Below, piece by piece: positions 38,040-53,918 of a stretch of DNA of 64,000 bases. The notes beneath the pieces are model-generated. The model was not told where the DNA came from. It did not search any database and saw nothing but the letters and a program-made list of their open reading frames with translations. Within the stretch, counting starts at the first letter, position 1. Every line of letters begins with the position of its first letter. Where the stretch lies: the NCBI RefSeq assembly GCF_003334405.1, contig NZ_QOWM01000018.1; one strand, given 5' to 3'. The position numbers were made by a program, and so were the translations under genes. Source of the DNA: Escherichia coli (lineage in GTDB: Bacteria > Pseudomonadota > Gammaproteobacteria > Enterobacterales > Enterobacteriaceae).

Positions 38040-38082
38040 TGTGACAATGTCACATCATGTTCTGAGATTATGATGATTACAG

Positions 38083-38122: not shown

Positions 38123-38124
38123 AA

Positions 38125-38973
38125 TCAGACTCGTGGCGGCAATGAACCAGGATAATGCCGTGCAATAATATCATTCAGTTTTTCAACAAGGTCAGGACGC
38201 TTAAAGACAATGTGTACGGTCCCTTTCTGGTAGCCACGCACCGTAAAATATTCCCCTTCTAACAGCTTACCGACATTGTCGCCGTTCCCGAGAAATTCAC
38301 CATACTGCGCCCCGATGCTGCTCCGGAAGTCAGGAACGTTGCGCCCCTCCAGCAGATAAAACGGACGTACCAGGTCATCCAGTGCCTCTCGTCCGCTGCA
38401 GTCCAGCGTCACACGCCCGTTACTCCAGCGGTACAGCAGGTTTTCAATAATGATTTTCTTGCCCAGACGGCATGGATTGTTGGTTCTGTAATCCCATGAC
38501 AGTTTCCTGTAGACATCAATCAGTCCCTGTTCAAATGTCTGCATCTTACTGGCATTCAGATGGCGAAAAGTTGCCAGCACATTGTCCAGGGTGATTTCAG
38601 GACAGGTGTCGCTCATCAGCTGGCTGTTCCACTCATCACGCTGGCATGAACTCATGAAGGTGTACATCCCCGTATCCGTCATCAGGCGGTCCCAGATTTT
38701 ACGGTCGGCAAGACGGGTGATATTCCTTTTCACTTCTTCCGGTTTATCCATGCACCGAATGGAGTCGGTCACGCAGTCTTCAAAACCGTAAAGAAAAATA
38801 TCACCTGACGCATCAAGCAGAATCCTGCGCGCTGTCGCCAGGCATTCCATCGCCTGCATGAACAGTGCAATACCTTCGTTACGCTGCGCGATGATGCGGT
38901 CGATGGCCACAGACGGAATAACATCTGTCGTGCCGGCAGTATTCAGGTCAGCAGTGGGTAAAGTCTGATTCAT
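38125..38973 (-). CDS. hypothetical leading-region protein (oriT-proximal, first minus-strand gene to enter the recipient)
   Basis: 282 aa from ATG 38973 with GAGGAGA RBS; no motif recognised. Confidence 0.6.
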   Translation of the reverse strand: MNQTLPTADLNTAGTTDVIPSVAIDRIIAQRNEGIALFMQAMECLATARRILLDASGDIFLYGFEDCVTDSIRCMDKPEEVKRNITRLADRKIWDRLMTDTGMYTFMSSCQRDEWNSQLMSDTCPEITLDNVLATFRHLNASKMQTFEQGLIDVYRKLSWDYRTNNPCRLGKKIIIENLLYRWSNGRVTLDCSGREALDDLVRPFYLLEGRNVPDFRSSIGAQYGEFLGNGDNVGKLLEGEYFTVRGYQKGTVHIVFKRPDLVEKLNDIIARHYPGSLPPRV

Positions 38974-39014
38974 CACATTGTCTCCTCATCGTCACGACTG
39001 CCGGGTCAGCCAGG

Positions 39015-39330
39015 TCATCTCCCGGAGGAGCGAAGCTCCTTCTGCCGTCCGGGTCTTCGGGGATTTCCCCGCAGTGGACCTTTCCGACGGGGGACGCTCA
39101 CCACGTCACGGGGCAGTTGTCCGGGGGCAGACGCAAAAGTTTTTGACGCCTGCGGCAAAAAGTTTTGTGGCTGGTACATCTCTCCCCTGGATGACTGAAA
39201 CGGGATGTGGTCGTGTATGTACCCCCGGAAAGTCCGTCTGCGGAGAACGGGCCGCAGGGCGGCGGCAGGCAGGCAGAGAGAACTGCGCCATCAGGCGCAG
39301 TGGCCTTACACACCGTAAGGTGTGCAGGGA
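39015..39330. promoter_or_regulatory. structured repeat family 1, copy A (Frpo/ssi-like single-strand promoter candidate), truncated
   Basis: aligns with 41880-42375 and 48225-48728; lies 5' of the minus-strand gene 38125-38973. Confidence 0.55.
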
Positions 39331-39450
39331 GCGCCGCATCCGGCGCGACCGGAGAAAACCGACGGCACAACAACGGCATGCGGTGGTCACTGGTACACCA
39401 CTCCCGCACAGGTGAAAACAGAGAAAACCGCACGACATCTACAACTAAAA

Positions 39451-39552
39451 AAAGTGAAATTTCTTCACTTTTTTACACTTATTTATTGCGTTGATTTGGT
39501 GATTGTGATGATAAAATAAAGTGAAGTTTTTTCACTTTTTCAAAGGTGTTTT
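39451..39552 (+). promoter_or_regulatory. promoter flanked by two palindromic operators AAAGTGAA-N6-TTCACTTT
   Basis: palindromes at 39451-39471 and 39518-39540; -35 TTGATT 39491-39496. Confidence 0.5.
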
Positions 39553-39804
39553 ATGACCGGCTGGGAACTGCGAATCTGGCGAAAAAGCATGCTCTGGTCA
39601 CGCGAAAAAGCGGCCAGAGAATTTGGCGTGACACAGAGAACATGGCACGCCTGGGAAAATGCGGATCAGGTGGATGTCACCGTCTGGAGGACCACCCAGG
39701 CACTTTCAGTCCGTGACCTGCTGCCTCACATGCAGGGGATGCGCAAGGCAGATATCATCAGGCGTCTGGAAAATGAACTGGGGGAAACGGCAGAGGATGT
39801 GTGA
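39553..39804 (+). CDS. small helix-turn-helix (XRE/Cro-like) DNA-binding protein
   Basis: 83 aa; HTH-like segment WSREKAAREFGVTQRTWHAWENA; only plus-strand gene in the leading region. Confidence 0.55.
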   Translation: MTGWELRIWRKSMLWSREKAAREFGVTQRTWHAWENADQVDVTVWRTTQALSVRDLLPHMQGMRKADIIRRLENELGETAEDV

Positions 39805-39834
39805 GCGTGATTCACAGCCTGGCTGAATGCCAGG

Positions 39835-39993
39835 CTACTGCTCATCAGGAAACAGTTTTTTCAGTTCTTCACCGGAAAGTCCGGTCGCCTCCTGAATCCG
39901 TTCCGGCGGCCAGCCCATATCCCGCAGCCGGCAGGCTATTTCCCGCGCCACTTCAAGAGCGCCTTTTTGAATAAGACGTTCTGCAATCGTCAT
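39835..39993 (-). CDS. free-standing RpnS-like small protein (homolog of Rpn C-terminal tail)
   Basis: 52 aa from ATG 39993: MTIAERLIQKGALEVAREIACRLRDMGWPPERIQEATGLSGEELKKLFPDEQ, parallels the last 61 aa of adjacent Rpn. Confidence 0.45.
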   Translation of the reverse strand: MTIAERLIQKGALEVAREIACRLRDMGWPPERIQEATGLSGEELKKLFPDEQ

Positions 39994-40055
39994 GCTGTTT
40001 GCTCTGCTCCTGCTGGCAAAAAAGCCCGGGATTTTGCCGGGCTTTGCGGTTCTCA

Positions 40056-40970
40056 TTAGTGAGTTATTTTCTTCAGTTCGTCATCGGAAAGTCCGGTAGC
40101 CTGCTTAATCTGCTCCGGCGTCATCCCCATTTTCTGAAGCTGGCACGCAATAGCCAGGGCTTTTTCAAGCGCTCCTTCCATGCGTCCTTCCATCCTGCCT
40201 TCCTGGCGACCTTTTTGCTCAAGACGTTCTGCGATAGTCATCAGTTTATCCTCATGCTGCGGCAGACGCTCAGCCAGCGCCCGCATAAATTCCGGTGATA
40301 CAGAGTCCCCTGCGTTAACGATGTAATGAATCAGAACACGCACCTGCTCGTCTGAAATTTCCACCATGACCTGCGGGAGTTTGTCCAGCAGCTCCATCAT
40401 GTCACGATGGCGGATATGCTTCATCAGCAGCGTCAGTGCGGCCATCCGGCGATGGTTCATGATTTCATTGTCATCAACGACAGTGATATCAACCAGCGGA
40501 AACGGCTTTGTGTATATTTTAGCCGCAAGTGCCGGATTCTCAAAACAGTCCAGCCAGTTCATGCTGTACGGATACGGGCTGCGCTCACCATGATAGAACA
40601 GCACCGGAATCACCAGTGGCAACGTTTTGTGCTGCTCCAGATGTCTCTGCATCGCCGCCACACTGTAACGTAACATGCGGAAAGGCATGTACAGATTTTC
40701 GGTGCTCTGGTGCTCGATGAGCGTATAAACATAGCCATCTTCACCCCCGGTGGTTTTCACGCTCCAGAGGATATCGCTGGCGTACTGATGCAGGTCCGGC
40801 TCAACAAAGGTGGCGGGTTCCAGCTTCAGCGTGGACAGGTCGCACAACTGCCGGTACTCCGCCGGAAGATGCAGTTCCAGAAAATCTCTGGCGACGTCGG
40901 GATTCGCCAGGAACGACCGGAACGCGGCATCGTGCGGCGTGGGCGTTGTGGTGTTTTTCTTCTTACTCAC
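40056..40970 (-). CDS. Rpn-family (YhgA-like, PD-(D/E)xK) recombination-promoting nuclease
   Basis: 304 aa from GTG 40970 with AGGAGG RBS; motifs DGYVYTLIEHQSTEN, in-frame internal Met MTIAERLEQKG 61 aa from the end. Confidence 0.65.
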   Translation of the reverse strand: MSKKKNTTTPTPHDAAFRSFLANPDVARDFLELHLPAEYRQLCDLSTLKLEPATFVEPDLHQYASDILWSVKTTGGEDGYVYTLIEHQSTENLYMPFRMLRYSVAAMQRHLEQHKTLPLVIPVLFYHGERSPYPYSMNWLDCFENPALAAKIYTKPFPLVDITVVDDNEIMNHRRMAALTLLMKHIRHRDMMELLDKLPQVMVEISDEQVRVLIHYIVNAGDSVSPEFMRALAERLPQHEDKLMTIAERLEQKGRQEGRMEGRMEGALEKALAIACQLQKMGMTPEQIKQATGLSDDELKKITH

Positions 40971-41034
40971 GGTTCCTCCTGGTGAGATGTCTGAACGTAT
41001 CCTGCCGCCTGCACAGGCAGACGGCAAGGGTTAA

Positions 41035-41301
41035 TCAGTGGCAGACCCGCTCAATTTCAAGCGCGCGGAGCAGGTGGCCCCATTCGCTGACTTTCATGGC
41101 GGGGATACGCACCCGCTTCTGCTCACTGCAGCGTCTGGCGATATGGCCGCTCATCGCCAGGACGTCCGGGTTAATCTCATCCTGTGCCAGCTCCTGACGT
41201 CTGAAGCGGGTATGGCGGTGCAGGGGTTTATTCTCCCGCAGGCACTCTTCACGCAGACGCTTTACATACTCGGCGGTTGCGAAGATAATTGATGGTCTCA
41301 T
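41035..41301 (-). CDS. hypothetical leading-region protein
   Basis: 88 aa, GGAGA RBS. Confidence 0.5.
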   Translation of the reverse strand: MRPSIIFATAEYVKRLREECLRENKPLHRHTRFRRQELAQDEINPDVLAMSGHIARRCSEQKRVRIPAMKVSEWGHLLRALEIERVCH

Positions 41302-41394
41302 GGCATAATCTCCATAGATAGTGATTGAGATGCCGGACTTCCTGGCGGGGAAGCGCCGGCGGAGAGAGGCAGGGTTTATCGCCCTGCCTCTTTT

Positions 41395-41829
41395 TCATTT
41401 CGGACAGCGACGCAGTGCCAGCGCGAGCGCTTTCATCTTCCAGCCTTCCGGCGTGCGGTACATCACCTTCCAGTAGCCGTCGATGAACACATAATGGAAG
41501 CGCACCTCTTCAGTGCTTTCAGTGGCAATAGCTTCCCTGAAAGAACGGTACTCACGCGCCTCACTGTCCATCCGGAAACCACTGTCACGTCCGTAATAAG
41601 CCGTCACACCGTCCACCGGGTTCTGAAGCGTATGCCCGGCGGGTTTGTCGCAACGGGGACCGAGGCAACGGATATCACCGTGTTCAACCAGGGCTTCGGC
41701 CTGCTGACCGGTGGCATAGTGGGTATGCAGGATGCGACCGTTCCAGGTCGGCTCACCGTGCAGGTGGCAGTAAACGGTACGGAACACCCCGTCGCGGCAA
41801 AAAACGGAAATCGTGCTGCTGACAGTCAT
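41395..41829 (-). CDS. hypothetical leading-region protein
   Basis: 144 aa, AAGGAGA RBS, immediately 3' of repeat copy B. Confidence 0.55.
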   Translation of the reverse strand: MTVSSTISVFCRDGVFRTVYCHLHGEPTWNGRILHTHYATGQQAEALVEHGDIRCLGPRCDKPAGHTLQNPVDGVTAYYGRDSGFRMDSEAREYRSFREAIATESTEEVRFHYVFIDGYWKVMYRTPEGWKMKALALALRRCPK

Positions 41830-41879
41830 GAAAACGTCTCCTTCTGCTGAATCAGGTCGCCGGGCCGACCGGTTGCTCC

Positions 41880-42375
41880 CCGGAGGGGCGAAAGCCCCTT
41901 CTGCCGTCCACTTCTTCGGGGTTTCTCCCCGCAGTGGACCTTTCCGATGGGGCGTCCGTCACCACGTCACGGGGCAGCTGTCCGGGGGCGGACGCAAAAT
42001 TTTTTGCCGGGTTTATGGCTAAAAATTTTGTGGACGGTATATCTTCCCCTGGACTGCTGAAACGGGATGTGGTTACTCCAGCCCCCGGAAAGTCCACAGC
42101 GGGAAACAGGCCGCAGGGGTGGCGGCGGAAGGGTTGACTGCGCCATCAGGCGCAGTTGCCTTACACACCGTCAGGTGTGCAGGGAGCGCCGTTTCCGGCG
42201 CGACAGGGGCGGCGCGACCGGAACGGTCGCTGCAAGCCTGGTTTTTCAGACATCGGACCGTAGCGGCAGCCCGAAACCGCGCCAGCGGGTTCGGCGGAGA
42301 CTGGCGGGTGCGCCAGCAGCTGCCTGTCGGAGTCGGGCCTGACGACCGGATGCCGCCAGGCAGCCGGGAGCCGAA
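41880..42375. promoter_or_regulatory. structured repeat family 1, copy B (Frpo/ssi-like single-strand promoter candidate)
   Basis: ~500 bp, near-identical to 48225-48728; many internal hairpins (CTGCGCCATCAGGCGCAG, CACACCGTCAGGTGTG). Confidence 0.6.
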
Positions 42376-42557
42376 GGTGTCCCCGCCTCCGGAAATCAGA
42401 ACAACAGAAACGACATAACAGAAAAATGCCTCACACCATGACGGGCAGGAAGGGCAGCGCCGCAGGCGCGGCCCTCCTGCATTTCAGGCAGGCGTAAGCC
42501 TGCCAGGGTTTTCCGGCGGCCTGGCAGGCCATACCCCCGCCGGAGCGGGGGAGTAAA

Positions 42558-43058
42558 TCACCGACGGAACACATGACCGTCAATAAAGGTGAAGGAGTCC
42601 AGGAATAAATCCCGCGCATACGCCTCATAGTCAAAATAGAGCGCCACCGTCTCCGGCACGTCAGCCAGCAGGCCGGTATCACTGGCGAACTCAACCGCAA
42701 AAGCCTCCTCACTGTCAGCCTCGCCCCACCAGGCATCGCGGAAGGTGTCAAAATCCGTCTCACCGGTATCATCCACCCAGAGACGATAAGCCTCTTCGCA
42801 GCCTTCATCCCGCGCCTGGCGGAAGCCTTCAACCCAGGCCCAGTTGATATGACATTCAGAGGCCATATTCCCCGGGAATCCCTCATAATCCTGAAACATC
42901 AGTTCAGGATCGGCTTCATCCTGGTGAAGAGCACGGCAGGCGGCGAAAAAGTCGCGCTCATCATCAAACGTGGTCAGGTCAAACCAGCGGCCAGCGATGC
43001 TTCCACAGTTGTATTTGTGCCAGGTTCCAACGTATACAGCAGGGGCAACAACAGACAT
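42558..43058 (-). CDS. ardA: antirestriction protein ArdA (DNA mimic)
   Basis: 166 aa from ATG 43058: [34 protein letters not shown], very acidic. Confidence 0.8.
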
Positions 43059-43085
43059 TCCCGAATCCTCCATAGTCACATGTTC

Positions 43086-43396
43086 TGCGACACCGGGCGG
43101 TGCCGTGCCTCCATAAAAGCCGGGCGATAAGGCGGGGATGCACAGGGCGCAAGGGAAGCCGCAGCCTGACGCACACGGCTGGCGGGAGTTGGAGGGTGAG
43201 ACCGCGAAATCTGAGCGGGTGAACGACCGGAAAATCACGGCAGACGGGAAGGAGGGACCGGGTGACCGCAGCGGCGAAGCGTACCCTTGCATCCCTGCCA
43301 GCCCGGCTAAGATGGAGGCACGGCACAGCCCGCACACGATACGGCGGCCACAGAGCTGAAAACCCACAAGGCCATGCCCCGCATGGCCGGGTAAAA
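43086..43396. repeat. structured repeat family 2, copy 1 (~310 bp, identical to 50040-50349)
   Basis: direct comparison of the two stretches; immediately 5' of ardA. Confidence 0.7.
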
Positions 43397-43520
43397 GCGG
43401 AGCCGCCGGCGACTTCCTTATTCCGGCGAGTGCAGAGGACACGCCGCATGACCTCCAGACCACCCCTGATATGAAACGATCATGATCGGCGTGTCCCTGC
43501 GTAAAATATACATGCCTGGT

Positions 43521-44117
43521 TCACCGGAGAATATCTGTGATATCCACAAGTTTTCTGTCGCGCAGCCAGTCCTGCGCTTCACGCACCACACAACTGTCCG
43601 GTTTCACCGCTTTCAGCGATGATGCCAGTCGCTTGATCAACATCACCAGTTCCCGTGTCTGTATGTCCGGCATTGTCTCCGGCGGAGCAGGGGGACTCTC
43701 ATTTCCGACGCTCATCCCATGCGCTTCCAGTGTGGCACGGACAAACCAGGCGGCATCGACCAGTTGCTGGCGAATCCAGGCCAGATCGGTATTTCTGTCA
43801 CGGGCTGCCATTCGCTCGCCCGACAGCGCCTTGCTGATATGGCTGCGCACCAGATTATCCAGGAGTGCCTGCGCTTCTTCCGGTGAAAAGCCACCTGGTA
43901 TCTCTGTGCGCAACAGCCCTTTCCTGTACAGAAGCTGCAGCAGATCAACCTGCGACCGCACAGCAACTATCAGTACATAACGGACAACATTCGCACTGGC
44001 AGTGGTTTCTGTATCATTCAGCAGTTCTTCCGAATCGTTCCCCCCGGTGTTGCAGAGCAACGGCAACAGAGGTCGCATCCACGCGGGAACCTGGTATTTT
44101 TCGTCTGATTTCATCAT
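43521..44117 (-). CDS. hypothetical leading-region protein
   Basis: 198 aa from ATG 44117, ATGA overlap with psiA stop. Confidence 0.55.
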   Translation of the reverse strand: MMKSDEKYQVPAWMRPLLPLLCNTGGNDSEELLNDTETTASANVVRYVLIVAVRSQVDLLQLLYRKGLLRTEIPGGFSPEEAQALLDNLVRSHISKALSGERMAARDRNTDLAWIRQQLVDAAWFVRATLEAHGMSVGNESPPAPPETMPDIQTRELVMLIKRLASSLKAVKPDSCVVREAQDWLRDRKLVDITDILR

Positions 44118-44833
44118 ATTACGTTCTCCAGCTTGTTCGGGATCATCCACTGCTCAAGTGCACGTACCTGTACCGGTGCACCACGACCGGCCTCACCGGC
44201 TTCAAAAATCAGCCGCCAGAGTGGTTCCTCCTGCCAGAAAAACCGGTCAAATGATGACAGTGATGGAAAACGCCCGCACCACCCCCAGAAAATCGTTTCC
44301 AGATCATGCTCCTCAACAACACCAGACCAGCGGGACAACCAGCTTCCGACCGTGGCGGGAGTATGAAACGCAAGGTCAATCTGCGCCTGAGCAAAACATG
44401 TCTGGTATTCCAGTTCCCGTCGTTCTGCCTCACGTTCCCGCTGGCGGCTGTATTTCTGCTCTGTCAGCGTGGTTTTCTGACGACGACGCTCACCTTCACG
44501 AAAAGGCACGGACGGGAACAGACGGTGCCCCGCATCGGATGGCAGGGGAAGAACACAGACTTCACCAAAACTTTCAATCAGTTTATCCACGGCAGCCAGC
44601 CACAGGAGACGGTTGCCATGAAATTCCTCCTTCGTCAGCGCAGGGGCAAAAAAGCGGAGATCGGTCAGCGAAATCCGGCGACTGCCATTCAGGCAGCGAA
44701 AGAAAGCGGTGGCATAAGGCCATGCTGAAAGTGTGCGTCCCTGACGACGACGTTGTTCTGTGACAGCCACCGCCTGCATGGCGGCCTGTTGTTCTGCGCT
44801 GAGGGGGATCAGTGCCCGTGAACGTGCGCTCAT
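44114..44833 (-). CDS. psiA: plasmid SOS-inhibition protein PsiA
   Basis: 239 aa, [18 protein letters not shown], overlaps psiB stop. Confidence 0.8.
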
Positions 44834-45267
44834 GCCTGACCTCCTTCTGCCATCAGGATATGAATGATGTCGTTAACACTGTATCCCTGCGCATCCAGTG
44901 TCGCGGCAAGCGCCAGCGTGTGACTGATAGCGACAGGCGTGAAGATATGTTGCACCTGAACGACGGCGAAAGGCTGTCCACCACCATTCACCAGAACCAG
45001 CATCCAGAGCTGAGAGACCTCTCCCGGCGAACATAATGCCAGGTGGAAACGTTCGTGGGCTGGCGTGAAACGAACCTGGACGGGGAAAAAGCCCCCGAAC
45101 TCGCTGCCATACTCCCCGTTCATCATCCAGTTAGCCGGTGCGTCCACTTCACGCATCACCTCGTGAGTGAGATTACGGCGCATATCGCTTCCCGCAGCAC
45201 GGATATCTTCATATTCCTGTGCGTTCATGGACTGCAGGGCATTCAGGGTCAGTTCAGTTTTCATCAC
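44830..45267 (-). CDS. psiB: plasmid SOS-inhibition protein PsiB
   Basis: 145 aa, [28 protein letters not shown]. Confidence 0.85.
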
Positions 45268-45318
45268 GGTATCTCCCTTGCTGCCGCCCCGTCTCCGGCG
45301 GGGCGGTGTGGTTGTTCA

Positions 45319-47277: not shown

Positions 47278-47335
47278 AATCATCCCCTTATAATTGCTTA
47301 TGTCCTGCCGGACGTTCGCGCGTCCGGCACCTCTC

Positions 47336-47608
<273 letters not shown>

Positions 47609-47626
47609 TTATCACAGTCAGGCCAG

Positions 47627-48157
47627 TCAGAACGGGATATCGTCTGAAAACCCGTAATCGTCACCCTCCGGCGGTTGCGGCTGAGGCTCCGGCTGCGCGG
47701 CCTTTCGTCCACGGCCTTTCGTTTTCGCGCCACCTTTTTTCGTGGCAGCCTCCGGCTGAGGCTGACCGCTGAACTGTGGTGTGCCGTCCGGCTGAGTCTG
47801 AGTTCCTGCGGCACGTCCCAGCATCTGCATGGTGCCCGTGGTTTTAACAAGGATTTCGGTGACGTAGCGGGTGACACCGTTGTTGTCCTCCCAGCTACGG
47901 GTGCGAAGCTGGCCTTCGATGTAGACCTGCGCGCCCTTGCGCAGATATTCACCGGCCACTTCCGCGAGCTTGTCGAACAGCACCACGCGGTGCCATTCCG
48001 TCAGTTCCTTAATTTCTCCCGTCTGTTTGTCGCGCCAGCTTTCTGACGTGGCCACCTGCAGGTTTGCCACTGCGCCCCCGTTGGGGATGTAACGGACTTC
48101 CGGATCATTGCCCAGACGCCCGACGAGGATGACCTTGTTGATACCACGTGCACTCAT
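47627..48157 (-). CDS. ssb: plasmid single-stranded DNA-binding protein
   Basis: 176 aa; OB-fold N-terminus [23 protein letters not shown], Gly/Pro/Gln-rich linker, acidic tail DDIPF. Confidence 0.9.
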
Positions 48158-48224
48158 AAGAACCTCCTGACTGAAAGATGTGAGATAAACCGGATACCGG
48201 CGACGGGACGTTCATGTGCCCCTT

Positions 48225-48728
48225 CAGAGGAGCGAAAGCTCCTCCTGCCGTCCACTTCACAGGGGTTTCTCCCCGCAGTGGACCTTTCCGATGGGGGCCC
48301 GTTTACCGCCTCACGGGACAGCTGTCCGGGGGCGGACGCAAAATTTTTTGCCGGGTTCATGGCTAAAAATTTTGTGGCCGGTGCATCTCACCCTGGACAG
48401 ATGGAACGGGAGGGGGTTACGTCTGCCCCCCGGAAAGGTCCACAGCGGGGAAACAGGCCGCAGAGGTGGCGGCAGGAGGGAAGACTGCTGCGCCATCAGG
48501 CGCAGTTTCCTCACACACCGTCAGGTGTGCAGGGAGCGCAGGTTACGGCGCGACAGAGGCGGCGCGACCGGAACGGTCGCTGCAAGCCCGGGTTTTCACG
48601 CATCGGACCGTAGCGACAGCCCGAAACCGCGCCAGCGGGTTCGGCGGAGACTGGCGGGTGCGCAAGCAGCTGCCTGTCGGAGTCGGGCCTGACGACCGGA
48701 TGCCGCCAGGCAGCCGGGAGCCGAAGTG
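48225..48728. promoter_or_regulatory. structured repeat family 1, copy C (Frpo/ssi-like single-strand promoter candidate) 5' of ssb
   Basis: ~500 bp near-identical to copy B. Confidence 0.6.
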
Positions 48729-48928
48729 GGCGCAATAAAAGACAGCCAGAAACGGTGACAGTGTCACGGAATATCACACCTGTTCCTGGCATACAGTCAT
48801 ACACTACCTTCTGACCGGAAAGCCGGGCCGGCAGCGCCGCAGGCGCTGCACCCCGCGTTTCCGGCAGGCGTCAGCCTGCCAGGGGTTTTCGCGCGGGCTG
48901 ACAGGCGGCCTCCACCGCCTGCCCTGTA

Positions 48929-49120
48929 TCACCTGTTTCTGCTGCCCTGAAGGATATAGTGACCACCGAGGAAAACCGCCTGCTGATTCACCACAAAATC
49001 GCAGATTTCATCAACAATCTGCGCAGTGGTGAGCGGTTTCTGCCCCATTTCACGACGCCGCGCATTAATCACGGCTTTGTAATTGCGCAGAATTTCGCGG
49101 GTTTCTGTGCTGATATTCAT
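48929..49120 (-). CDS. hypothetical small protein
   Basis: 63-aa ORF overlapping stop of upstream gene. Confidence 0.4.
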   Translation of the reverse strand: MNISTETREILRNYKAVINARRREMGQKPLTTAQIVDEICDFVVNQQAVFLGGHYILQGSRNR

Positions 49121-49539
49121 GACATGTGCTCCCCGTCCAGCGCCTGTAACACAACGTCCATCGCTTCGCGTTCTTCCCTGACGAATGCGTCACCGTCGCC
49201 CCCGTTCTCACTCCCGACGGCATACAGGCGCTTCATTTCACTGCCTGCCAGCGCCACCACTTTTTCCAGCATCACCGCCGGGACTGTCACCTGACGGCTG
49301 ACGCGCTTTTCTTCCATCAGTTCACGAACAACGTCGTGAACAACGCTGACATCCGCACCATGCTCAAAGGCATCGTCCAGCCGCTGCATGACGGTTTCCA
49401 GCTCATCGTCTGACAGGTTCCAGTCCTGGGCTATGTGACGCACATCCCCACGGGTCAGCACCACGGCAAAAACGCATTCACTGTCCGGCACGTCTGTATC
49501 CAGCACTTCGCGGATAATTTCTTTAACAGTACAGTACAT
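49117..49539 (-). CDS. hypothetical leading-region protein (paralog of 51256-51705)
   Basis: 140 aa; shares MY.T.EI..E...LSD.E..TV..RL.D and RQV.VP pattern with the 149-aa ORF. Confidence 0.6.
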   Translation of the reverse strand: MYCTVKEIIREVLDTDVPDSECVFAVVLTRGDVRHIAQDWNLSDDELETVMQRLDDAFEHGADVSVVHDVVRELMEEKRVSRQVTVPAVMLEKVVALAGSEMKRLYAVGSENGGDGDAFVREEREAMDVVLQALDGEHMS

Positions 49540-49585
49540 TTTCTCGTCTCCTTTACAGGGGCGGCATTGCCGCCCCGTCCGTTAA

Positions 49586-50011
49586 TCAGTCCAGAGCCGC
49601 GTAAATCGCGTTGCATTCAGGGTGAAATTCGATGTGACGCCACAACTGCGCATCGCGCATCCGGTAAAGCTGGGTCAGTCCTGCATCACCGCTGTCGTGG
49701 TACAGCCACAACTGGCGGTTAATCACAAGGGAAGTCAGAATGATGCCGCAGGCATCAGCACTCACGGTACGGTCAAACCAGTTTGCACCGTTCACTATGT
49801 GGAAACGGTCGCCATCTGGCATCATGTAGCCGCCACCGTCCGGCAGGCGGATGAAGTGCCAGAATCCGCCTTCATATTCCGGCATCATTTGTTTCGCCAG
49901 CGCGTATACAGACGCTTCGGCATACAGAAAATCCTGGCCAAACAGGTAAGGCAGAAAAGACAAACGGTCGCACTCTTCAACGTTCAGAGTGACAGGTTTC
50001 GCATATTGCAT
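49586..50011 (-). CDS. KlcA/ArdB-family antirestriction protein
   Basis: 141 aa; family-like motifs [43 protein letters not shown]. Confidence 0.65.
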
Positions 50012-50039
50012 GATGTTTTCCTCCGTTGTTCACATATTC

Positions 50040-50349
50040 CGCGACACCGGGCGGTGCCGTGCCTCCATAAAAGCCGGGCGATAAGGCGGGGATGCACAGG
50101 GCGCAAGGGAAGCCGCAGCCTGACGCACACGGCTGGCGGGAGTTGGAGGGTGAGACCGCGAAATCTGAGCGGGTGAACGACCGGAAAATCACGGCAGACG
50201 GGAAGGAGGGACCGGGTGACCGCAGCGGCGAAGCGTACCCTTGCATCCCTGCCAGCCCGGCTAAGATGGAGGCACGGCACAGCCCGCACACGATACGGCG
50301 GCCACAGAGCTGAAAACCCACAAGGCCATGCCCCGCATGGCCGGGTAAA
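50040..50349. repeat. structured repeat family 2, copy 2 (~310 bp, identical to 43086-43396)
   Basis: immediately 5' of the KlcA-like gene. Confidence 0.7.
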
Positions 50350-50428
50350 GCGGAGCCGGCGGCGACTTCCTTTGTGCTCTGTCCGGGGACCGGCAGGAAA
50401 AAGGCGGGAATTTACCCCGCCAGTGTCA

Positions 50429-51256
50429 TCATTTCCGGATTTTTGCCAGGGCATCCGCCATGCTGCGGATTTCGGTCCGGGCTTCCCGGACCACCTCCCG
50501 CAGAACACCACGGTCAAACCAGCGGCGGGGCGGTTCATCGGGTATACGCAGCACATCGCAGGCCAGCCCACTGGACAGGATATGCTCAATACAATCGCTG
50601 ACCAGGTACATTTCCACCGACGAAAAACGTGCTCCCCGGTTCACTATGGCATCGAGCACCACGGGCAGGTTTTCGTCATCTTCATCGAGCCAGCAGGGGT
50701 GATCGCTTTCCTTCACGACCAGGCGAAAGCGGCGCGTCTGGCGGGTCAGCAACGTCTGACCGGTGGTGGTCAGCGCCGCACGGATACGCCGCGCATCTTC
50801 TGCCACCTGGTAACAGATGCTTCGTACCGCATCGTGCACCGCATCAAGAACAGCCCTGATTTCGTCTTCGGTCAGCCATTCTCCGGCATACGGGAAAGAC
50901 ACCTGCGTTCCGTCTGCCGGAAGTACCGGCAGCGATTGCCACTGACTGCCGGACAGTACCAGTTCCGCCCCGGTTCCGGTCAGTCTCTGAATGGCGGAGG
51001 CCAGGAGCGGCGGCAGCACGCCGCCGTGACGGTTGATAAGTAAGGTCGCCAGCCGGGGCGCATCCAGCAGAACATAAATGCTGATCCAGCCCGGATACTT
51101 CGGGTTACGCTGGTCAACATCCGTCTCTTCCGGCCAGCCCTGCGCCAGCAGCAGGTTGCGGGCGTGACGACAAATCAGTGCGTTCAGCGTGCTGTTTTCG
51201 TTCATGATTAAGCGTTCTCCCTGTATCGCCGCCCGCAGGGCAGGCGGCGATAACAT
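50429..51256 (-). CDS. hypothetical leading-region protein
   Basis: 275 aa; start overlaps upstream stop (TGATG); alternative ATG 51205 has GGGAGAA RBS. Confidence 0.55.
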
Positions 51257-51705
51257 CAGTTGTTTTCGTGTGTGTTGTTTTTCAGCAGGCTGCGGGCCTG
51301 ATTAACCACCGCCTGACGACGGGTGACGCATTCCGGGACGGTGAGTCCGTTATCACGGGCGGCCCATTCACGCTTCCACAATGCCTGTTCAGCGGTCTGA
51401 ATCAGGGACGCCAGCAGTTCAACAGGGACGGACACCTGGCGGTTTTCGCTCACGTTGCTGATAATCTCCATCGCAGCGGCGGAAGAAATACCGGACTCAA
51501 TCCGCTGGTCTTCCGGGATGTCCTCCAGGCGCGCCAGGACAGTCCTGATTTCATGATCGGACAGGGAAATATCCATTCCGTCAGCGAGGGCCTGAATCTC
51601 TTCCGGGGACCAGACAACCAGCATCAGTGGCGTGTCTGCCGGATACTTTGCTGCCAGCTCCCGGCAGAGTATTTCGCATGTTCCGTACATACTCTCTCCC
51701 CTCAA
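51256..51705 (-). CDS. hypothetical leading-region protein (paralog of 49117-49539)
   Basis: 149 aa, ATGA overlap with upstream gene. Confidence 0.6.
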
Positions 51706-51923
51706 TCTTTGAAGCAGGAATCCAGTTCCAGAATTTCGGTATATGCCTCCATCAGGAGGCGGTTTGCGCGAAACAACGTCTGACGCACCAGACGTTCCGG
51801 CAGGGTGTCAGCATTAAAGCTGTACCGCCGCTCCATCTCATTCATGGTTGTACGCAGGTCGCACATGGCATTGGCCACCTCCGCCACTTCGGCGCGAAGT
51901 TTTTCATGTCCGGCATAGTTCAT
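51702..51923 (-). CDS. hypothetical small protein
   Basis: 73 aa, adjacent to methyltransferase stop. Confidence 0.45.
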   Translation of the reverse strand: MNYAGHEKLRAEVAEVANAMCDLRTTMNEMERRYSFNADTLPERLVRQTLFRANRLLMEAYTEILELDSCFKD

Positions 51924-52607
51924 TTACGCAGCCTCCGGCATAAACCAGTCATCATTTGCGGCCCCCTGCTGCATGGCCCGCTGTACGGCAGCCAGACGTT
52001 GCTGTCCGGCACGGTGATACTGCTCAAGCAGCTCGATACCGATATACCGGCGTCCGGACTGAAGGGCGGCCACGCAGGTTGAGCCGCTGCCTGCAAACGG
52101 GTCCAGCACAATCGCGTTCGGATGTGTGAAGCTCTCAATCAGTGGTTGCAGGCTGGTAACAGGCTTTTCCGTCGGGTGATGACGATTGCCTGAATATTTC
52201 CAGCCCAGCACGTCGGGTAATGGCTTCTGAGGCAGCGCCGGACGGCCTTTTGCCAGAACGTAGGCGCATTCGTGGCGATAACCCACATATGCGGCCTTCG
52301 ATGTGTAGTTTTTGGTGAAGACCAGGTGCCCAACCACACTGAATCCCGCATTTTTCCAGGCGGCCATAAAGCGATCGACGCGGTTCCAGCCGTAGAAGCT
52401 GACCATCAGCGCATCTTTTTTGAGTACGCGATACATTTCATTACAGGCTGGTTGCAGCCATTCATCGGTTTTATCGCCGGCGATGGTACGCCCCTGTCGG
52501 TCACGAAAACCGACGAGGTATGGCGGGTCAGTCAGTATGAAATCAATGCCGTTATCAGGAATACGCGCCATAACATCAATGCAGTTACCGAGGACAAAAC
52601 GGGACAT
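51924..52607 (-). CDS. orphan DNA methyltransferase (N6-adenine/N4-cytosine class, beta-type motif order)
   Basis: motif IV DPPY followed by motif I LDPFAGSGST; AAGGAG RBS; no adjacent restriction gene. Confidence 0.8.
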   Translation of the reverse strand: MSRFVLGNCIDVMARIPDNGIDFILTDPPYLVGFRDRQGRTIAGDKTDEWLQPACNEMYRVLKKDALMVSFYGWNRVDRFMAAWKNAGFSVVGHLVFTKNYTSKAAYVGYRHECAYVLAKGRPALPQKPLPDVLGWKYSGNRHHPTEKPVTSLQPLIESFTHPNAIVLDPFAGSGSTCVAALQSGRRYIGIELLEQYHRAGQQRLAAVQRAMQQGAANDDWFMPEAA

Positions 52608-52991
52608 AACAACACTCCTTCTTTCTCAGAGGGCACCGGGAGGGCACCCCTGTGGTGCCCGTTCCCCGCTGCCTGTGGGCTGTTCACCGCGTCCGGTAAC
52701 GGGTCAGGCCGACCGTGGAATATCGCAGCCGTCGTCTTTTTGACGGCGAGAATATGCCGCGAAAGCGGCTTGAAGGGCGTTCATCAGAAAAGGGCGACAG
52801 GCTGGCGTACACTGTCACCGACGCCAGCCGGGAGCGGTAAAAGCGCCCGTCCCGTGCCCGCCGGACGCGGGACACTGACCACAGGCAGCGTTTATGCCGC
52901 GCCGCATCAGCCGGCGCAGTAAACAGAGGAGCACGGCGACATCCTTTGTCGGAAAAGAAACGGGCGGTTGCCCGCCCGTCTCCGTCATACT

Positions 52992-53918
52992 TCATCCACC
53001 GTAATGCGCCACCTTGTCGACTATCCACGCAGGTCCGGTGACTTCCGGCAGCTCATCGTCATCTGTCGGGGAAGACCATTCCAGTTCCCCCCAGAGCACA
53101 TCAACGAGCTCTCCGCGCTCATACAACTGCCAGCCACAGAAATTGCAGCCCTGTTCGGCGTACCAGTGCTCCAGCGTGCAGCCGAAACGGCGGCTTAATG
53201 CTGCAACAACGTCGCTTTCCGGCTGACACCACGGCGTGTCGAAATCCACCTGAATGCAGTTGTCTCCCTGACTACTGATATTCAGGTCATACCCACAAGG
53301 CCACTTCACGCCATACCGTTCTGTATACCAGTGATATGCAGAAGGAACACCGTTCAGAACACCACCATTAAAGCCATTCACTTCAACATCCAGGCGGGTC
53401 GGCAGAACCGTCAGCAGGTCAAACGGCATGGTTTTTTCCGGCACTACGTTGTCACACAGACGGTTCCACCACACCGATACATCCTCGCTACCCCAGATGT
53501 CACACCAGTCACCTCTTTTTGCGGTGAAATGCACAGTGATGGTTTCCCTGACATCATCCGGTAATCCTTCCCAGCGACGCTGTCCAGTACCGCTCTGCAG
53601 CCAGAGCTCATGCAGCATCAGGCAGTTTTGCTCATCCAGCAGTACACCGTTCTGCAGGTGTGTCAGCCAGCGGGTGAACGCGATATTTTCCGTCGATACA
53701 GCACCACGTCCGGCAGCCGTCACTCCGGGGCACTGTTCAGAGCGGATATTTTCAGTGATCTGCAGAAGTCCGGCACTTCCGGCCAGAAACAGCTGAATAC
53801 CTTCATTTGTGGCGCGGCGATAAAGCGGTGTAACTGCACCGCTGGCCAGTCGTTTAATCTCAGCGATCTGTGCCGGTTCACCAGAAAAATACATACGATT
53901 CGAGCACCAGTTTGGCAT
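52992..53918 (-). CDS. hypothetical Cys/Trp-rich leading-region protein
   Basis: 308 aa from ATG 53918 (MPNWCSNRMYFSG), AGGAGA RBS. Confidence 0.55.
   Translation of the reverse strand: MPNWCSNRMYFSGEPAQIAEIKRLASGAVTPLYRRATNEGIQLFLAGSAGLLQITENIRSEQCPGVTAAGRGAVSTENIAFTRWLTHLQNGVLLDEQNCLMLHELWLQSGTGQRRWEGLPDDVRETITVHFTAKRGDWCDIWGSEDVSVWWNRLCDNVVPEKTMPFDLLTVLPTRLDVEVNGFNGGVLNGVPSAYHWYTERYGVKWPCGYDLNISSQGDNCIQVDFDTPWCQPESDVVAALSRRFGCTLEHWYAEQGCNFCGWQLYERGELVDVLWGELEWSSPTDDDELPEVTGPAWIVDKVAHYGG

What the first reader, a model, noticed from the sequence alone, without database searches (positions are those of the whole stretch)
38125..53918. Leading region is a dense minus-strand island of known anti-defence genes plus about ten unassigned ORFs
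Everything between oriT and impCAB except one HTH gene is on the minus strand, i.e. templated by the strand predicted to enter the recipient first. Recognisable genes are all early-establishment or anti-defence functions (ardA, KlcA/ArdB-like, orphan DPPY methyltransferase, psiB/psiA, ssb, ParB-like protein). Interleaved ORFs with no motif I can assign (38125-38973, 41035-41301, 41395-41829, 43521-44117, 47336-47575, 48929-49120, 49117-49539, 50429-51256, 51256-51705, 51702-51923, 52992-53918) share the same context, RBS quality and translational coupling. By guilt of association they are candidates for uncharacterised anti-restriction, anti-CRISPR, anti-SOS or other establishment functions.
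Basis: partly seen in the sequence, partly recalled or inferred. Interest (0 to 1): 0.65.

Follow-up and report, generated by a model that had tools for sequence, protein, structure and literature searches.

The report
Known IncI plasmid leading-region island
This stretch is the well-studied "leading region" of an IncI-type conjugative plasmid, the first DNA to enter a new host, and its roughly ten unnamed genes are real and conserved but already catalogued elsewhere as early-expressed genes of unknown function.

Summary
From an R64-type oriT (nick about 37562/37563) to impCAB (54312), every gene in 38125-53918 except one HTH gene lies on the minus strand, so each is templated by the entering T-strand. 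All 11 unassigned ORFs are conserved under purifying selection.

Nothing here is new. The segment is collinear with pESBL-EA11, with proteins 84-100% identical for the named genes (73% for the small RpnS-like ORF). It matches at least 5000 IncI and IncF plasmid records. The anti-defence island idea is Samuel et al. 2024, and their top-30 leading-region families include at least eight of these ORFs. RNA-seq and 5' RACE on pESBL (NAR 2025) showed six operons driven by single-strand DNA promoters. Their intergenic segments are 94-99.7% identical here.

What I added:
- A map of seven structured elements. The class-1 hairpin has 30 covarying pairs against F's Frpo copies.
- Two corrected start codons.
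- Evidence that the annotated "orf103" is a hairpin rather than a gene.
- A high-confidence YgcA fold with no solved analogue.
- The ParB-like gene is the orthologue of HerB, a host reprogrammer rather than an anti-defence protein.

No function was found for any of the 11 ORFs.

The parts
37513..37571 (+). oriT core of R64 type: 17-nt inverted repeat followed by the nick region ACATCCTG|T (nick about 37562/37563). The + strand is the transferred strand.
   Evidence: The nick position rests on established knowledge of R64/RP4 oriT and was not tested here.
38125..38973 (-). ygfB/ydiA, DUF4942 protein (282 aa). First T-strand-templated gene after oriT, followed by a hairpin plus T-run terminator at 38083-38119.
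39022..39420 (+). Class-1 single-strand DNA promoter element (ssi/Frpo type), copy a, upstream of ygfB.
   Evidence: Three-copy repeat family. DNA fold z=-8.5. 30 of 85 pairs covary against F's Frpo copies. The enclosing intergenic gap 38974-39552 is 96.7% identical to the pESBL gap.
39553..39804 (+). ygeA, an HTH regulator and the only + strand gene in the range. Two 21-nt palindromes AAAGTGAAnnnTTCACTTT at 39451 and 39518 lie just upstream.
   Evidence: Pfam HTH_31 E=1.6e-4. Repeats.
39835..40056 (-). Free-standing RpnS-like small ORF. The probable true start is ATG 39993, giving 52 aa.
   Evidence: 59% identical to the C-terminus of the adjacent Rpn. Matches PDB 7TH0 (RpnA_S) over residues 22-66 at E=0.0025. 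Repeats D6 and D13.
40056..40970 (-). ygdB, an Rpn (YhgA-like) nuclease with a C-terminal RpnS region and GRQE/GRME/GRME four-residue repeats at 40173-40211.
   Evidence: Pfam Transposase_31 E=2.6e-78. 12-, 24- and 21-nt length differences from other plasmids. Repeat coordinates. Function from PMC10400941.
41035..41301 (-). ygdA, an 88-aa basic protein (pI 9.9). This is family 1, the largest family in Samuel et al.'s leading-region table.
   Evidence: dN/dS 0.00-0.03. No hit in any library. Family names. Gene name.
41395..41829 (-). ygcA, 144 aa, mislabelled 'PndC' in databases. First gene of the operon behind ssi copy b.
41883..42376 (+). Class-1 single-strand DNA promoter element, copy b, upstream of ygcA.
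   Evidence: (z=-12.4). The enclosing gap 41830-42557 is 99.7% identical to the pESBL gap.
42558..43058 (-). ardA, an anti-restriction DNA mimic (166 aa, pI 4.1).
   Evidence: Pfam ArdA E=2.6e-29. Start codon. Charge.
43076..43375 (+). Class-2 single-strand DNA promoter element upstream of ardA. Core CTTGCAT-N15-TAAGAT starts at 43286.
   Evidence: 99% identical to the copy at 50030-50329. Fold z=-6.4. Structure. 97% identical to the F element upstream of klcA.
43521..44117 (-). ygaA, 198 aa, overlapping the psiA stop by 4 nt. Found only in IncI-complex plasmids of enterobacteria.
   Evidence: dN/dS 0.33 against the IncK2/Z plasmid.
44114..45264 (-). psiB (44830-45264) and psiA (44114-44833), the SOS inhibition genes.
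   Evidence: Pfam PsiB E=9e-57 and PsiA E=1.6e-41.
45319..47277 (-). yfhA, a ParB-like protein of 652 aa. Orthologue of F YfjB, now HerB.
   Evidence: Pfam ParB_N and HTH_ParB. 92.5% aa identity to the F gene over its full length. Function from bioRxiv 2026.07.07.736705.
47336..47575 (-). DUF905 protein (YfjA/YubL/YkfF family), 79 aa.
   Evidence: Pfam DUF905 E=7e-34. PDB 2HJJ (YkfF) E=6e-21. 96% identical to the F protein.
47627..48157 (-). Plasmid ssb.
   Evidence: Pfam SSB E=9e-38.
48227..48726 (+). Class-1 single-strand DNA promoter element, copy c, upstream of ssb-DUF905-herB-psiB-psiA-ygaA.
   Evidence: (z=-12.8). At least 5000 plasmid records match it. The enclosing gap 48158-48928 is 97.9% identical to pESBL.
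48929..49120 (-). yffA, 63 aa, overlapping the yfeC stop by 4 nt.
   Evidence: dN/dS 0.00-0.12. 98% identical to the F protein.
49117..49539 (-). yfeC, an acidic DUF1380 protein (pI 4.4, net charge -12 per 100 aa).
   Evidence: Annotated as DUF1380 family in related plasmids; Pfam DUF1380 hit one sequence of the set. Paralogue of yfcB, 27% identity, E=9e-9. Charge.
49586..50011 (-). yfeB, KlcA/ArdB-type anti-restriction gene.
   Evidence: Pfam Antirestrict E=1.9e-25.
50030..50329 (+). Class-2 single-strand DNA promoter element upstream of klcA. A minus-strand terminator-like hairpin at 50403-50421 closes the upstream operon.
   Evidence: (z=-5.8).
50429..51205 (-). yfdA/ychA family protein, 258 aa, with corrected start.
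   Evidence: phrog_8919 E=5e-139, aligned from residue 18 of the long ORF. dN/dS 0.19-0.21. No similarity to ArdA.
51256..51690 (-). yfcB, a DUF1380 paralogue of 144 aa, with corrected start.
   Evidence: phrog_9024 E=1.6e-71, aligned from residue 6..
51702..51923 (-). yfcA, 73 aa. Its start directly abuts the methyltransferase stop codon.
   Evidence: phrog_4830 E=5e-34. dN/dS 0.23-0.25 at about 80% nt identity. Junction.
51924..52607 (-). yfbB, an orphan DPPY methyltransferase. 94% aa identical to the sole DNA methylase gene in the pESBL leading region, taken here to be M.EcoGIX (single-strand-specific m6A at SAY).
   Evidence: Pfam N6_N4_Mtase E=4e-39. Identity. Function from PMC7736820.
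52640..52930 (+). Large structured element directly 5' of the methyltransferase gene. Candidate for the published 'class 3' single-strand DNA promoter. It overlaps the database ORF 'orf103'/YubC (52684-52995), which is probably not a gene.
   Evidence: Fold z=-6.8. Detected in the hairpin scan. 27-pair helix essentially invariant in 5 plasmids (26 of 27 pairs never vary), with a 1-nt indel in a loop. The indel frameshifts the ORF in two plasmids and in F. Product pI 11.7.
52992..53918 (-). DUF1281 (YubB/Api92 family) protein, 308 aa, acidic (pI 4.6).
   Evidence: Pfam DUF1281 E=1e-45 and DUF1281_C. PDB 2IJR E=1e-46. dN/dS 0.31-0.37. Only residues 1-162 align in F.
53945..54125 (+). Seventh hairpin, upstream of DUF1281. 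It shares the stem base and the core CTTGCAT..GCAGCCCGGyTAAsrTG (starting at 54072) with the class-2 elements. Its activity is unknown.
   Evidence: (z=-6.6). 98% identical in F.
54312..56268 (+). impCAB (DinI-like, UmuD-like, Y-family polymerase), the far boundary of the island, in the opposite orientation. A LexA box lies at 54271-54288.
   Evidence: Annotation of the 97.7% identical plasmid..

Best explanation
This is the leading region of an IncI-complex conjugative plasmid of the ColIb-P9 / R64 / pESBL type. It works as a zygotic-induction regulon.

Mechanism:
1. NikB nicks the + strand at oriT (about 37562/37563). That strand enters the recipient 5' end first, so 37.6 to 54.3 kb arrives first and is single-stranded.
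2. Large hairpins extrude from the single strand. There are three class-1 ssi/Frpo elements, two class-2 elements, one element directly 5' of the methyltransferase gene, and possibly a seventh upstream of DUF1281.
3. The hairpins mimic duplex promoters. Host RNA polymerase then transcribes the entering strand into six or seven minus-sense operons before the complementary strand is made.
4. Complementary-strand synthesis melts the hairpins and switches the burst off.

Known products:
- ArdA and KlcA block restriction.
- The M.EcoGIX-type methyltransferase methylates the incoming single strand.
- PsiB and PsiA damp the SOS response.
- SSB coats the single strand.
- The HerB orthologue reprograms host transcription.

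The 11 unassigned ORFs are genuine, long-catalogued members of these operons: YgfB, YgdA, YgcA, YgaA, DUF905, YffA, YfeC, YfdA, YfcB, YfcA and DUF1281. They are therefore made in the same early burst.

Their biochemical functions are unknown. I consider a mixture most likely: some direct defence inhibitors, some partners of the adjacent known proteins, and some host-manipulating establishment factors.

Shown here: the anatomy, conservation, hairpin covariation and identity to pESBL. Taken from the literature: single-strand transcription and early induction. Inferred: that each ORF here is induced, and what it does.
For: - Plasmid identity. At least 5000 PLSDB records match. The best hit is 97.7% identical over 16 kb and carries NikA/NikB and MPF_I. 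The region is collinear with pESBL, with proteins 84-100% identical for the named genes, and 11 of the ORFs tested are 88% or more identical to F proteins.
- oriT and strand polarity.
- Repeat families place the hairpin elements exactly upstream of each operon.
- Single-strand DNA folds have z-scores of -5.8 to -12.8. An energy scan of the whole region picks out these seven sites plus one borderline window inside the ParB-like gene.
- The class-1 hairpin keeps 85 pairs across the three copies and F's two Frpo copies. 30 of those pairs show compensatory changes.
- No good conventional minus-strand sigma-70 promoter lies upstream of the operons.
- Literature. Six single-strand DNA promoters with 5' RACE start sites and up to about 500-fold induction at 15 min in pESBL. 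M.EcoGIX protection depends on oriT orientation. Leading-region islands bounded by oriT and umuCD homologues.
- The ORFs are real: dN/dS of 0.47 or below and no frameshifts.
Against: - No expression data exist for this plasmid itself.
[quoted passage not shown] Its per-gene table is not held. So induction of individual ORFs is inferred, not shown. DUF1281, the genes downstream of ygcA and rpn are the least certain.
- I found seven structured elements where six promoters were published. I could not decide from the text whether 'class 3' is the element at 52.6-52.9 kb or the one at 53.9-54.1 kb.
- I could not assign convincing -35/-10 hexamers to the class-1 elements.
- Covariation cannot separate a DNA hairpin from an RNA hairpin in the transcript.
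- No function was found for any of the 11 ORFs.
Confidence: 0.85

Rival explanations
1. One reading: most of the 11 ORFs are direct inhibitors of recipient defence systems, such as new anti-restriction, anti-CRISPR or anti-SOS proteins.
For: - They are co-transcribed with ArdA, KlcA, the methyltransferase and PsiB.
- Most of these families rank among the most enriched leading-region families.
- YfeC and DUF1281 are acidic, as DNA mimics are.
- Four ORFs are of anti-CRISPR size, 63-88 aa.
- YgcA homologues lie beside ArdC genes and in phage early small-ORF arrays.
Against: - No match to any anti-defence or defence family.
- YfdA shows no similarity to ArdA.
- The YgfB and YgcA models resemble no known inhibitor.
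- HerB and Rpn show that this island also holds non-anti-defence genes.
- The F and IncI copies are 92-98% identical (yfcA 75%), with low dN/dS. That is unlike the rapid diversification typical of arms-race inhibitors.
Confidence: 0.3
2. Several ORFs are accessory partners or regulators of the neighbouring known proteins rather than independent effectors. Candidate pairs are the two DUF1380 paralogues with KlcA and with the methyltransferase, YfcA with the methyltransferase, YgaA with PsiA/PsiB, and DUF905 with SSB or HerB.
For: - One DUF1380 paralogue sits in each of the two adjacent anti-restriction operons.
- The yfcA start abuts the methyltransferase stop. ygaA overlaps psiA by 4 nt and yffA overlaps yfeC by 4 nt.
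- These pairings are kept in both IncI and F.
- M.EcoGIX lost activity on purification, which suggests a missing partner.
Against: - The evidence is purely positional.
- The M.EcoGIX authors attribute the instability to a PolI interaction.
- ygaA is absent from F, although psiA is present there.
Confidence: 0.3
3. The ORFs are host-manipulation or plasmid-cost-mitigation factors. They would act on recipient physiology or on strand conversion, as HerB does, and not on immunity.
For: - HerB, in the same operon, acts this way.
- Strong conservation across IncI and IncF fits a conserved host target.
- Single-strand DNA promoters also control conversion timing.
Against: - There is no direct evidence for any of the 11.
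- The basic YgdA and the YgcA family occur in phages of very different hosts. That argues against a single enterobacterial target for those two.
Confidence: 0.25
4. The ORFs are spurious or decaying reading frames in a GC-rich, stop-poor region.
For: This is true for some annotated ORFs here. 'orf103' and the ORFs inside the ssi elements show frameshifts or dN/dS near or above 1.
Against: All 11 listed ORFs have dN/dS of 0.47 or below, no indels, ribosome-binding sites and PHROG or Pfam family membership.
Confidence: 0.03

Closest known systems
Leading region of IncI1 plasmid pESBL-EA11 (NC_018659), and by extension ColIb-P9 and R64
   Same: Same gene order from nikAB/oriT to impCAB. Proteins are 84-100% identical for the named genes (73% for the small RpnS-like ORF), and the six promoter-bearing intergenic segments are 94-99.7% identical. 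pESBL has experimentally mapped single-strand DNA promoters and early induction.
   Different: The two class-2 copies are 99% identical here but about 93% identical in pESBL. DUF905, ssb and yfcB are the most diverged genes, at 84-88%. pESBL has one extra small annotated ORF before rpn. The best overall match is typed IncI-gamma/K1, not IncI1.
F plasmid leading region (Frpo1/Frpo2; the yub genes; YfjA, YfjB/HerB)
   Same: The block from the 54-kb hairpin through the methyltransferase, yfcA/B, yfdA, klcA, yfeC, yffA, ssb and DUF905 to herB and psiB is shared. Proteins are 84-98% identical except yfcA at 75%. The class-2 element and both methyltransferase-side hairpins are 97-98% identical. The class-1 hairpin is structurally conserved with covariation.
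   Different: F lacks ygfB, rpn, ygdA, ygcA, ardA and ygaA. Near oriT it carries hok/sok, DUF932 and gene X instead. F has one class-2 copy rather than two. DUF1281 aligns only over residues 1-162 in F, and psiA is only 64% identical.
Plasmid 'anti-defence islands' of Samuel et al., Nature 2024
   Same: The island is bounded by oriT and opposite-facing umuCD homologues. It contains anti-restriction, anti-SOS, orphan methyltransferase and SSB genes, all on the T-strand-templated orientation, and it has Frpo-type promoters. The unassigned ORFs belong to their top-ranked uncharacterised families.
   Different: No anti-CRISPR gene and no toxin-antitoxin pair of the types they highlight was recognised. 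Instead the island carries an Rpn L/S defence module and a HerB-type host reprogrammer.
Rpn L/S toxin-antitoxin antiphage systems (Zhong et al., PNAS 2023)
   Same: Transposase_31 nuclease domain. C-terminal RpnS-like helical region with variable four-residue repeats. An extra small RpnS homologue downstream, as described for some rpn genes.
   Different: It is located in a leading region behind a single-strand DNA promoter. Whether it defends, addicts, or neutralises recipient Rpn toxins is unknown.

Membership tests
Plasmid leading-region anti-defence island (Samuel et al. 2024) | Lies next to oriT on the side that enters the recipient first | tested here: met
   R64-type oriT at 37513-37571 with nick-region polarity on the + strand. 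The island starts within 600 nt of it.
Plasmid leading-region anti-defence island (Samuel et al. 2024) | Genes oriented so that the transferred strand is their template | tested here: met
   All genes in 38125-53918 except the HTH gene are on the minus strand.
Plasmid leading-region anti-defence island (Samuel et al. 2024) | Contains recognised anti-defence genes, an orphan methyltransferase and SSB | tested here: met
   Pfam hits for ArdA, Antirestrict, PsiA, PsiB, N6_N4_Mtase and SSB.
Plasmid leading-region anti-defence island (Samuel et al. 2024) | Far boundary formed by umuCD homologues in the opposite orientation | tested here: met
   impCAB at 54312-56268 on the + strand.
IncI1-type leading region (ColIb-P9 / R64 / pESBL) | Collinear gene order and high identity to a reference IncI1 plasmid, with the NikA/NikB relaxosome | tested here: met
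Class-1 single-strand DNA promoter (Frpo/ssi) | Long imperfect hairpin on the transferred strand, conserved in structure | tested here: met
   z-scores of -8.5 to -12.8. 30 of 85 pairs compensatory across 5 copies including F.
Class-1 single-strand DNA promoter (Frpo/ssi) | Sequence homology to the F Frpo loci | tested here: met
   Partial blastn matches of 74-94% to two F sites, one directly upstream of ssb.
Class-1 single-strand DNA promoter (Frpo/ssi) | -35 and -10 boxes reconstituted in the stem | tested here: inconclusive
   No convincing hexamer pair was found in the class-1 stems. The class-2 and 54-kb elements carry TTGCAT-N15-TAAGAT or TAACGT.
Class-1 single-strand DNA promoter (Frpo/ssi) | Transcription initiates on single-stranded DNA and stops after duplex conversion | not testable with these tools
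   Shown for the 94-99.7% identical pESBL segments by RNA-seq and 5' RACE.
Known anti-defence protein families (ArdA, ArdB/KlcA, ArdC, Acr, PsiB and others), as applied to the 11 ORFs | Significant sequence or fold similarity to a characterised inhibitor | tested here: not met
DNA methyltransferase, the database label often given to DUF4942/YgfB | Rossmann-type SAM-binding fold with motif I (GxGxG) and motif IV (D/NPPY) | tested here: not met
   No such motifs in the sequence. The model is a helical bundle plus a small alpha/beta domain with no methyltransferase match. The PHROG match is to the non-catalytic half of a 548-residue methyltransferase profile.
Rpn L/S toxin-antitoxin defence system | Transposase_31 (PD-(D/E)XK) nuclease domain plus a C-terminal RpnS region with variable four-residue repeats | tested here: met
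Rpn L/S toxin-antitoxin defence system | RpnS translated separately from an internal start and neutralising RpnL | not testable with these tools
   An internal Met precedes TIAERL in Rpn, and the downstream small ORF begins with the same motif.
HerB (ParB-like host expression reprogrammer) | Full-length orthology to F YfjB, with ParB_N (CTP-binding) and HTH domains | tested here: met
   92.5% identity over 652 aa. Pfam ParB_N and HTH_ParB. The reprogramming activity itself was not tested.

The most novel reading that the evidence does not exclude
At least one of the unassigned ORFs is a new class of early-acting effector. The strongest candidate is YgcA (41395-41829).

YgcA belongs to a family of about 2000 sequence clusters with no Pfam entry. 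Its predicted fold is very confident and has no solved analogue. His22, His66, Arg81 and Asp82 are invariant or nearly so. The family occurs both in plasmid leading regions and in phage early small-ORF arrays. That would fit a small enzyme or binder that removes a host immune signal or target.

Two secondary novelties:
- The island may have a seventh single-strand DNA promoter, at 53945-54125, related to class 2.
- The widely annotated 'hypothetical protein' between DUF1281 and the methyltransferase is a promoter hairpin, not a gene.
Probability: 0.25. Interest if true: 0.55.

Novelty: already known. Interest (0 to 1): 0.2.

Why it matters
Leading regions decide whether a resistance plasmid survives its first minutes in a new host, so their unknown genes are legitimate targets. 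That case has already been made in print, for these same gene families, on nearly identical plasmids.

The practical value of this window is as a clean annotated example:
- It gives exact coordinates for the oriT polarity, the seven hairpin elements and the operon membership of each unknown ORF.
- It corrects two gene starts.
- It flags one probable non-gene that is propagated in RefSeq annotation.
- It picks out YgcA as the unknown most worth testing first.

Tried and rejected
- Rfam at gathering thresholds found nothing inside the region.
- NCBIfam and PADLOC gave no meaningful hits for the ORFs. PHROGs gave only unknown-function families. The one exception was a match of YgfB to the non-catalytic half of a methyltransferase profile.
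- PDB sequence searches were empty or insignificant for YgfB, YgcA, YfdA, YfeC, YgdA and YgaA.
- Samuel et al.'s table links family 10 (YchA/YfdA) to ArdA. I tested YfdA against ArdA and found no similarity.
- I suspected that the old 'DUF1472' label came from ORFs inside the ssi hairpins. Current Pfam matched none of those ORFs, so I dropped the idea.
- I tried to assign -35/-10 boxes in the class-1 hairpins in both possible geometries. Nothing convincing emerged.
- Covariation on the 52.6-52.9 kb hairpin was uninformative because the five sequences are 95.5-100% identical to the window.
- The word-index homology search returned only close relatives for YgcA and YgaA.
- A literature search on the DUF names returned noise.
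- The supplement of the pESBL transcriptome paper and the 2025 Plasmid review are not held. Per-gene induction values and exact start sites could not be checked.

Full report
**What is there**

A megablast of 38000-54000 against PLSDB hit the 5000-record ceiling, and 1423 records cover at least 80% of the query. The best record is a Salmonella IncI-gamma/K1 conjugative plasmid, 97.7% identical, with the NikA/NikB relaxosome and MPF_I. The region is the leading region of an IncI-complex plasmid.

Pfam confirms the recognisable genes: ArdA, Antirestrict (KlcA/ArdB), N6_N4_Mtase, PsiA, PsiB, SSB, and ParB_N plus HTH_ParB.

**Strand logic**

At 37513-37571 the + strand carries the R64-type oriT core. 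This is a 17-nt inverted repeat (37515-37531 and 37538-37554) followed 8 nt later by ACATCCTG|T. By established knowledge of R64 and RP4 oriT, the strand bearing this sequence is nicked and enters 5' first.

The + strand therefore enters toward rising coordinates and is the template for minus-strand genes. The far boundary is impCAB on the + strand from 54312, with a LexA box at 54271. This is the oriT-to-umuCD island layout described by Samuel et al..

**Are the 11 ORFs real?**

Yes. Against four to five related plasmids (IncI-gamma/K1, IncK2/Z and IncF), each ORF aligns without frameshifts and has dN/dS between 0.00 and 0.47. Three control ORFs inside the repeat elements give 0.6 or more, or only non-synonymous changes. 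All 11 carry GGAG-type ribosome-binding sites.

Two starts need correcting:
- yfcB begins at ATG 51690. The PHROG alignment starts at residue 6 of the longer frame.
- yfdA begins at ATG 51205, behind an AAGGAG site. The PHROG alignment starts at residue 18, and the pESBL annotation is 777 nt.

True 4-nt overlaps remain at psiB/psiA, psiA/ygaA and yfeC/yffA. The methyltransferase stop abuts the yfcA start.

Five of the 11 are not motif-free:
- DUF4942, DUF905, DUF1380 and DUF1281 are Pfam families.
- DUF905 matches the YkfF structure 2HJJ, and DUF1281 matches Api92 2IJR. Both structures have unknown function.
- The ORF at 51256-51690 is a paralogue of the DUF1380 gene at 49117-49539 (27% identity, E=9e-9).

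About 24% of the stated range is non-coding, so 'dense' is an overstatement.

**What the non-coding quarter is**

Direct-repeat analysis finds a three-copy family at about 39.0-39.4, 41.9-42.4 and 48.2-48.7 kb. It also finds a two-copy 300-nt family at 43076-43375 and 50030-50329, 99% identical.

Each repeat sits immediately upstream of an operon. Folded as single-stranded DNA on the + strand, all give long hairpins with z-scores of -5.8 to -12.8.

A sliding energy scan of 37.4-54.6 kb picks out these five sites and two more: 52.6-52.97 kb and 53.95-54.2 kb. One borderline window inside the ParB-like gene also passes.

I aligned the three class-1 copies with the two homologous sites in F. One of those F sites lies directly upstream of F ssb. 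The consensus hairpin has 85 pairs, and 30 of them show compensatory double changes. This is strong independent support for a conserved structure.

The conventional promoter scan finds no good minus-strand sigma-70 promoter ahead of the operons.

**Match to published work**

Yamaichi, Lesterlin and colleagues (NAR 2025, PMC12672017) profiled pESBL transcripts in recipients after killing the donors. They report the following:
- Six operons in the leading region are induced up to about 500-fold at 15 min, then decline.
- Each operon is preceded by a large hairpin. ssi1-3 form class 1, the elements 5' of ardA and klcA form class 2, and one element 5' of M.EcoGIX forms class 3.
- 5' RACE start sites match the predictions.
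- Not all leading-region genes are induced.

I fetched pESBL-EA11. It is collinear with the window, the six intergenic segments are 94-99.7% identical, and the named proteins are 84-100% identical.

The window's methyltransferase is 94% identical to the single DNA methylase gene in the pESBL leading region, which I take to be M.EcoGIX. M.EcoGIX methylates single-stranded DNA at SAY. Its protection against recipient restriction is lost when oriT is inverted (PMC7736820).

Samuel et al. (Nature 2024) had already framed leading regions as anti-defence islands. They argued that the abundant uncharacterised families probably have anti-defence roles. Their table of top families lists:
- YgdA (family 1)
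- DUF905 (family 2)
- YffA (family 6)
- DUF1380 (families 7 and 14)
- YchA/YfdA (family 10)
- YfcA (family 11)
- DUF4942 (family 24)
- DUF1281 (family 27)
- RpnB and RpnE (families 18 and 20)

**Operon membership of the unknowns**

This follows from the anatomy and is an inference for this plasmid:
- ssi copy a drives ygfB.
- ssi copy b drives ygcA and ygdA, and perhaps rpn and the small RpnS-like ORF.
- The first class-2 element drives ardA alone.
- ssi copy c drives ssb, DUF905, herB, psiB, psiA and ygaA.
- The second class-2 element drives klcA, yfeC and yffA.
- The methyltransferase-side element drives the methyltransferase, yfcA, yfcB and yfdA. A terminator-like hairpin at 50403-50421 closes this operon.

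**A discrepancy worth noting**

There are seven structured sites here but six published promoters.

The site at 52640-52930 lies directly 5' of the methyltransferase gene. It coincides with 'orf103' (52684-52995), annotated as a hypothetical protein in RefSeq plasmids. Several observations argue that this is a structured element read as a gene:
- The ORF's product has pI 11.7.
- A 1-nt indel near 52860 shifts the frame in pHU493 and an IncF plasmid, so their N-terminal halves are unrelated. In F only residues 47-103 align.
- The indel falls in an internal loop of a hairpin whose 27-pair helix is essentially invariant in five plasmids.

The other site, 53945-54125, lies upstream of DUF1281. It shares its stem base and the core CTTGCAT...GCAGCCCGGyTAAsrTG with the class-2 elements.

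The paper calls class 3 'different from all other hairpins' and '5' of M.EcoGIX'. For that reason I think the 52.6-kb element is class 3, and the 54-kb hairpin is an unreported class-2 relative. I could not verify this because the paper's supplement is not held.

**Attempts to assign function**

NCBIfam, PADLOC and Pfam gave nothing functional. PHROGs gave unknown-function families.

*YgcA.* Databases mislabel it 'PndC'. The real pnd/sok locus is at 29.5 kb. What the searches showed:
- An exhaustive HMMER scan finds 1981 cluster representatives, and no Pfam family covers them.
- His22, His66, Arg81, Asp82 and several aromatic residues are invariant or nearly so.
- Homologues lie beside two ArdC genes on one contig. 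Others lie within long arrays of small co-directional ORFs on a metagenomic contig and on a 235-kb phage-like contig.

This makes YgcA the best candidate for a new early effector, but no mechanism can be read from it.

*Others.*
- YgaA is confined to enterobacterial IncI-type plasmids.
- YfdA shows no similarity to ArdA.
- YfeC (pI 4.4) and DUF1281 (pI 4.6) are acidic, which is compatible with DNA mimicry but does not show it.

**Two neighbours that temper guilt by association**

The ParB-like protein is 92.5% identical over its full length to F YfjB. A July 2026 preprint renames YfjB as HerB. It shows that the protein binds the host chromosome, reprograms transcription and offsets the cost of acquisition.

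The Rpn gene has the hallmarks of an RpnL/RpnS toxin-antitoxin antiphage system. It carries four-residue repeats (GRQE/GRME/GRME at 40173-40211) whose number differs between plasmids. A free-standing RpnS-like ORF downstream matches the RpnA_S crystal structure. Both arrangements are described by Zhong et al. 2023.

**Verdict**

The system is already known in concept, in mechanism and at near-sequence identity. The incremental findings here are annotation-level.

Noticed in passing
window 52640-52995: The ORF annotated as 'hypothetical protein' between DUF1281 and the methyltransferase in many RefSeq plasmids (YubC-like) is frameshifted by a 1-nt indel in some plasmids and in F. It overlaps a large conserved hairpin, so it is probably a single-strand DNA promoter element and not a gene.
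   Followed up: yes
window 53945-54125: A seventh hairpin lies upstream of DUF1281. It shares its stem base and a TTGCAT-N15-TAACGT core with the two class-2 promoter elements. The published pESBL work lists only six promoters.
   Followed up: partly
window 43076-43375 and 50030-50329: The two class-2 elements are 99% identical to each other here but only about 93% identical in pESBL. This suggests recent gene conversion between the copies in this lineage.
   Followed up: partly
window 42476-42515 and 48852-48891: A 40-nt GC-rich repeat (85% identical) follows the last gene of both class-2-driven operons (ardA and yffA) and precedes a class-1 element. It looks like a duplicated module boundary or terminator.
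   Followed up: no
window 39835-40970: An Rpn nuclease carries variable four-residue repeats (40173-40211), and a free-standing RpnS-like small ORF follows it. This defence-type toxin-antitoxin module sits inside the leading region. Repeat number differs between related plasmids.
   Followed up: partly
window 39451-39471 and 39518-39538: Two 21-nt palindromes, AAAGTGAAnnnTTCACTTT, lie just upstream of the + strand HTH gene ygeA. They are likely its operator sites, and they face the ssi element and ygfB.
   Followed up: no
window 41395-41829: YgcA is widely named 'post-segregation killing protein PndC' in public databases. It has no relation to the hok/sok-type pnd locus, which lies at about 29.5 kb in this window. 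The name appears to be a propagated misannotation.
   Followed up: partly
window 28804-28891 and 29516-29673: Rfam finds an AgrB antisense RNA and a sok antitoxin RNA. These are two type I toxin-antitoxin loci in the transfer-region side of the plasmid, outside the finding.
   Followed up: no
window 54242-54288: The impC promoter TTGACT-18-TAGAAT overlaps a consensus LexA box, TACTGTATATACATACAG. The boundary operon is therefore SOS-controlled, while the island next to it encodes SOS inhibitors.
   Followed up: no
window 42431-42886, 42979-43449, 48154-48360: Arg-rich ORFs of 68-156 aa run through the hairpin elements. They show dN/dS of 0.6 or more, or only non-synonymous changes. Similar ORFs are annotated as hypothetical proteins in several public records.
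   Followed up: yes
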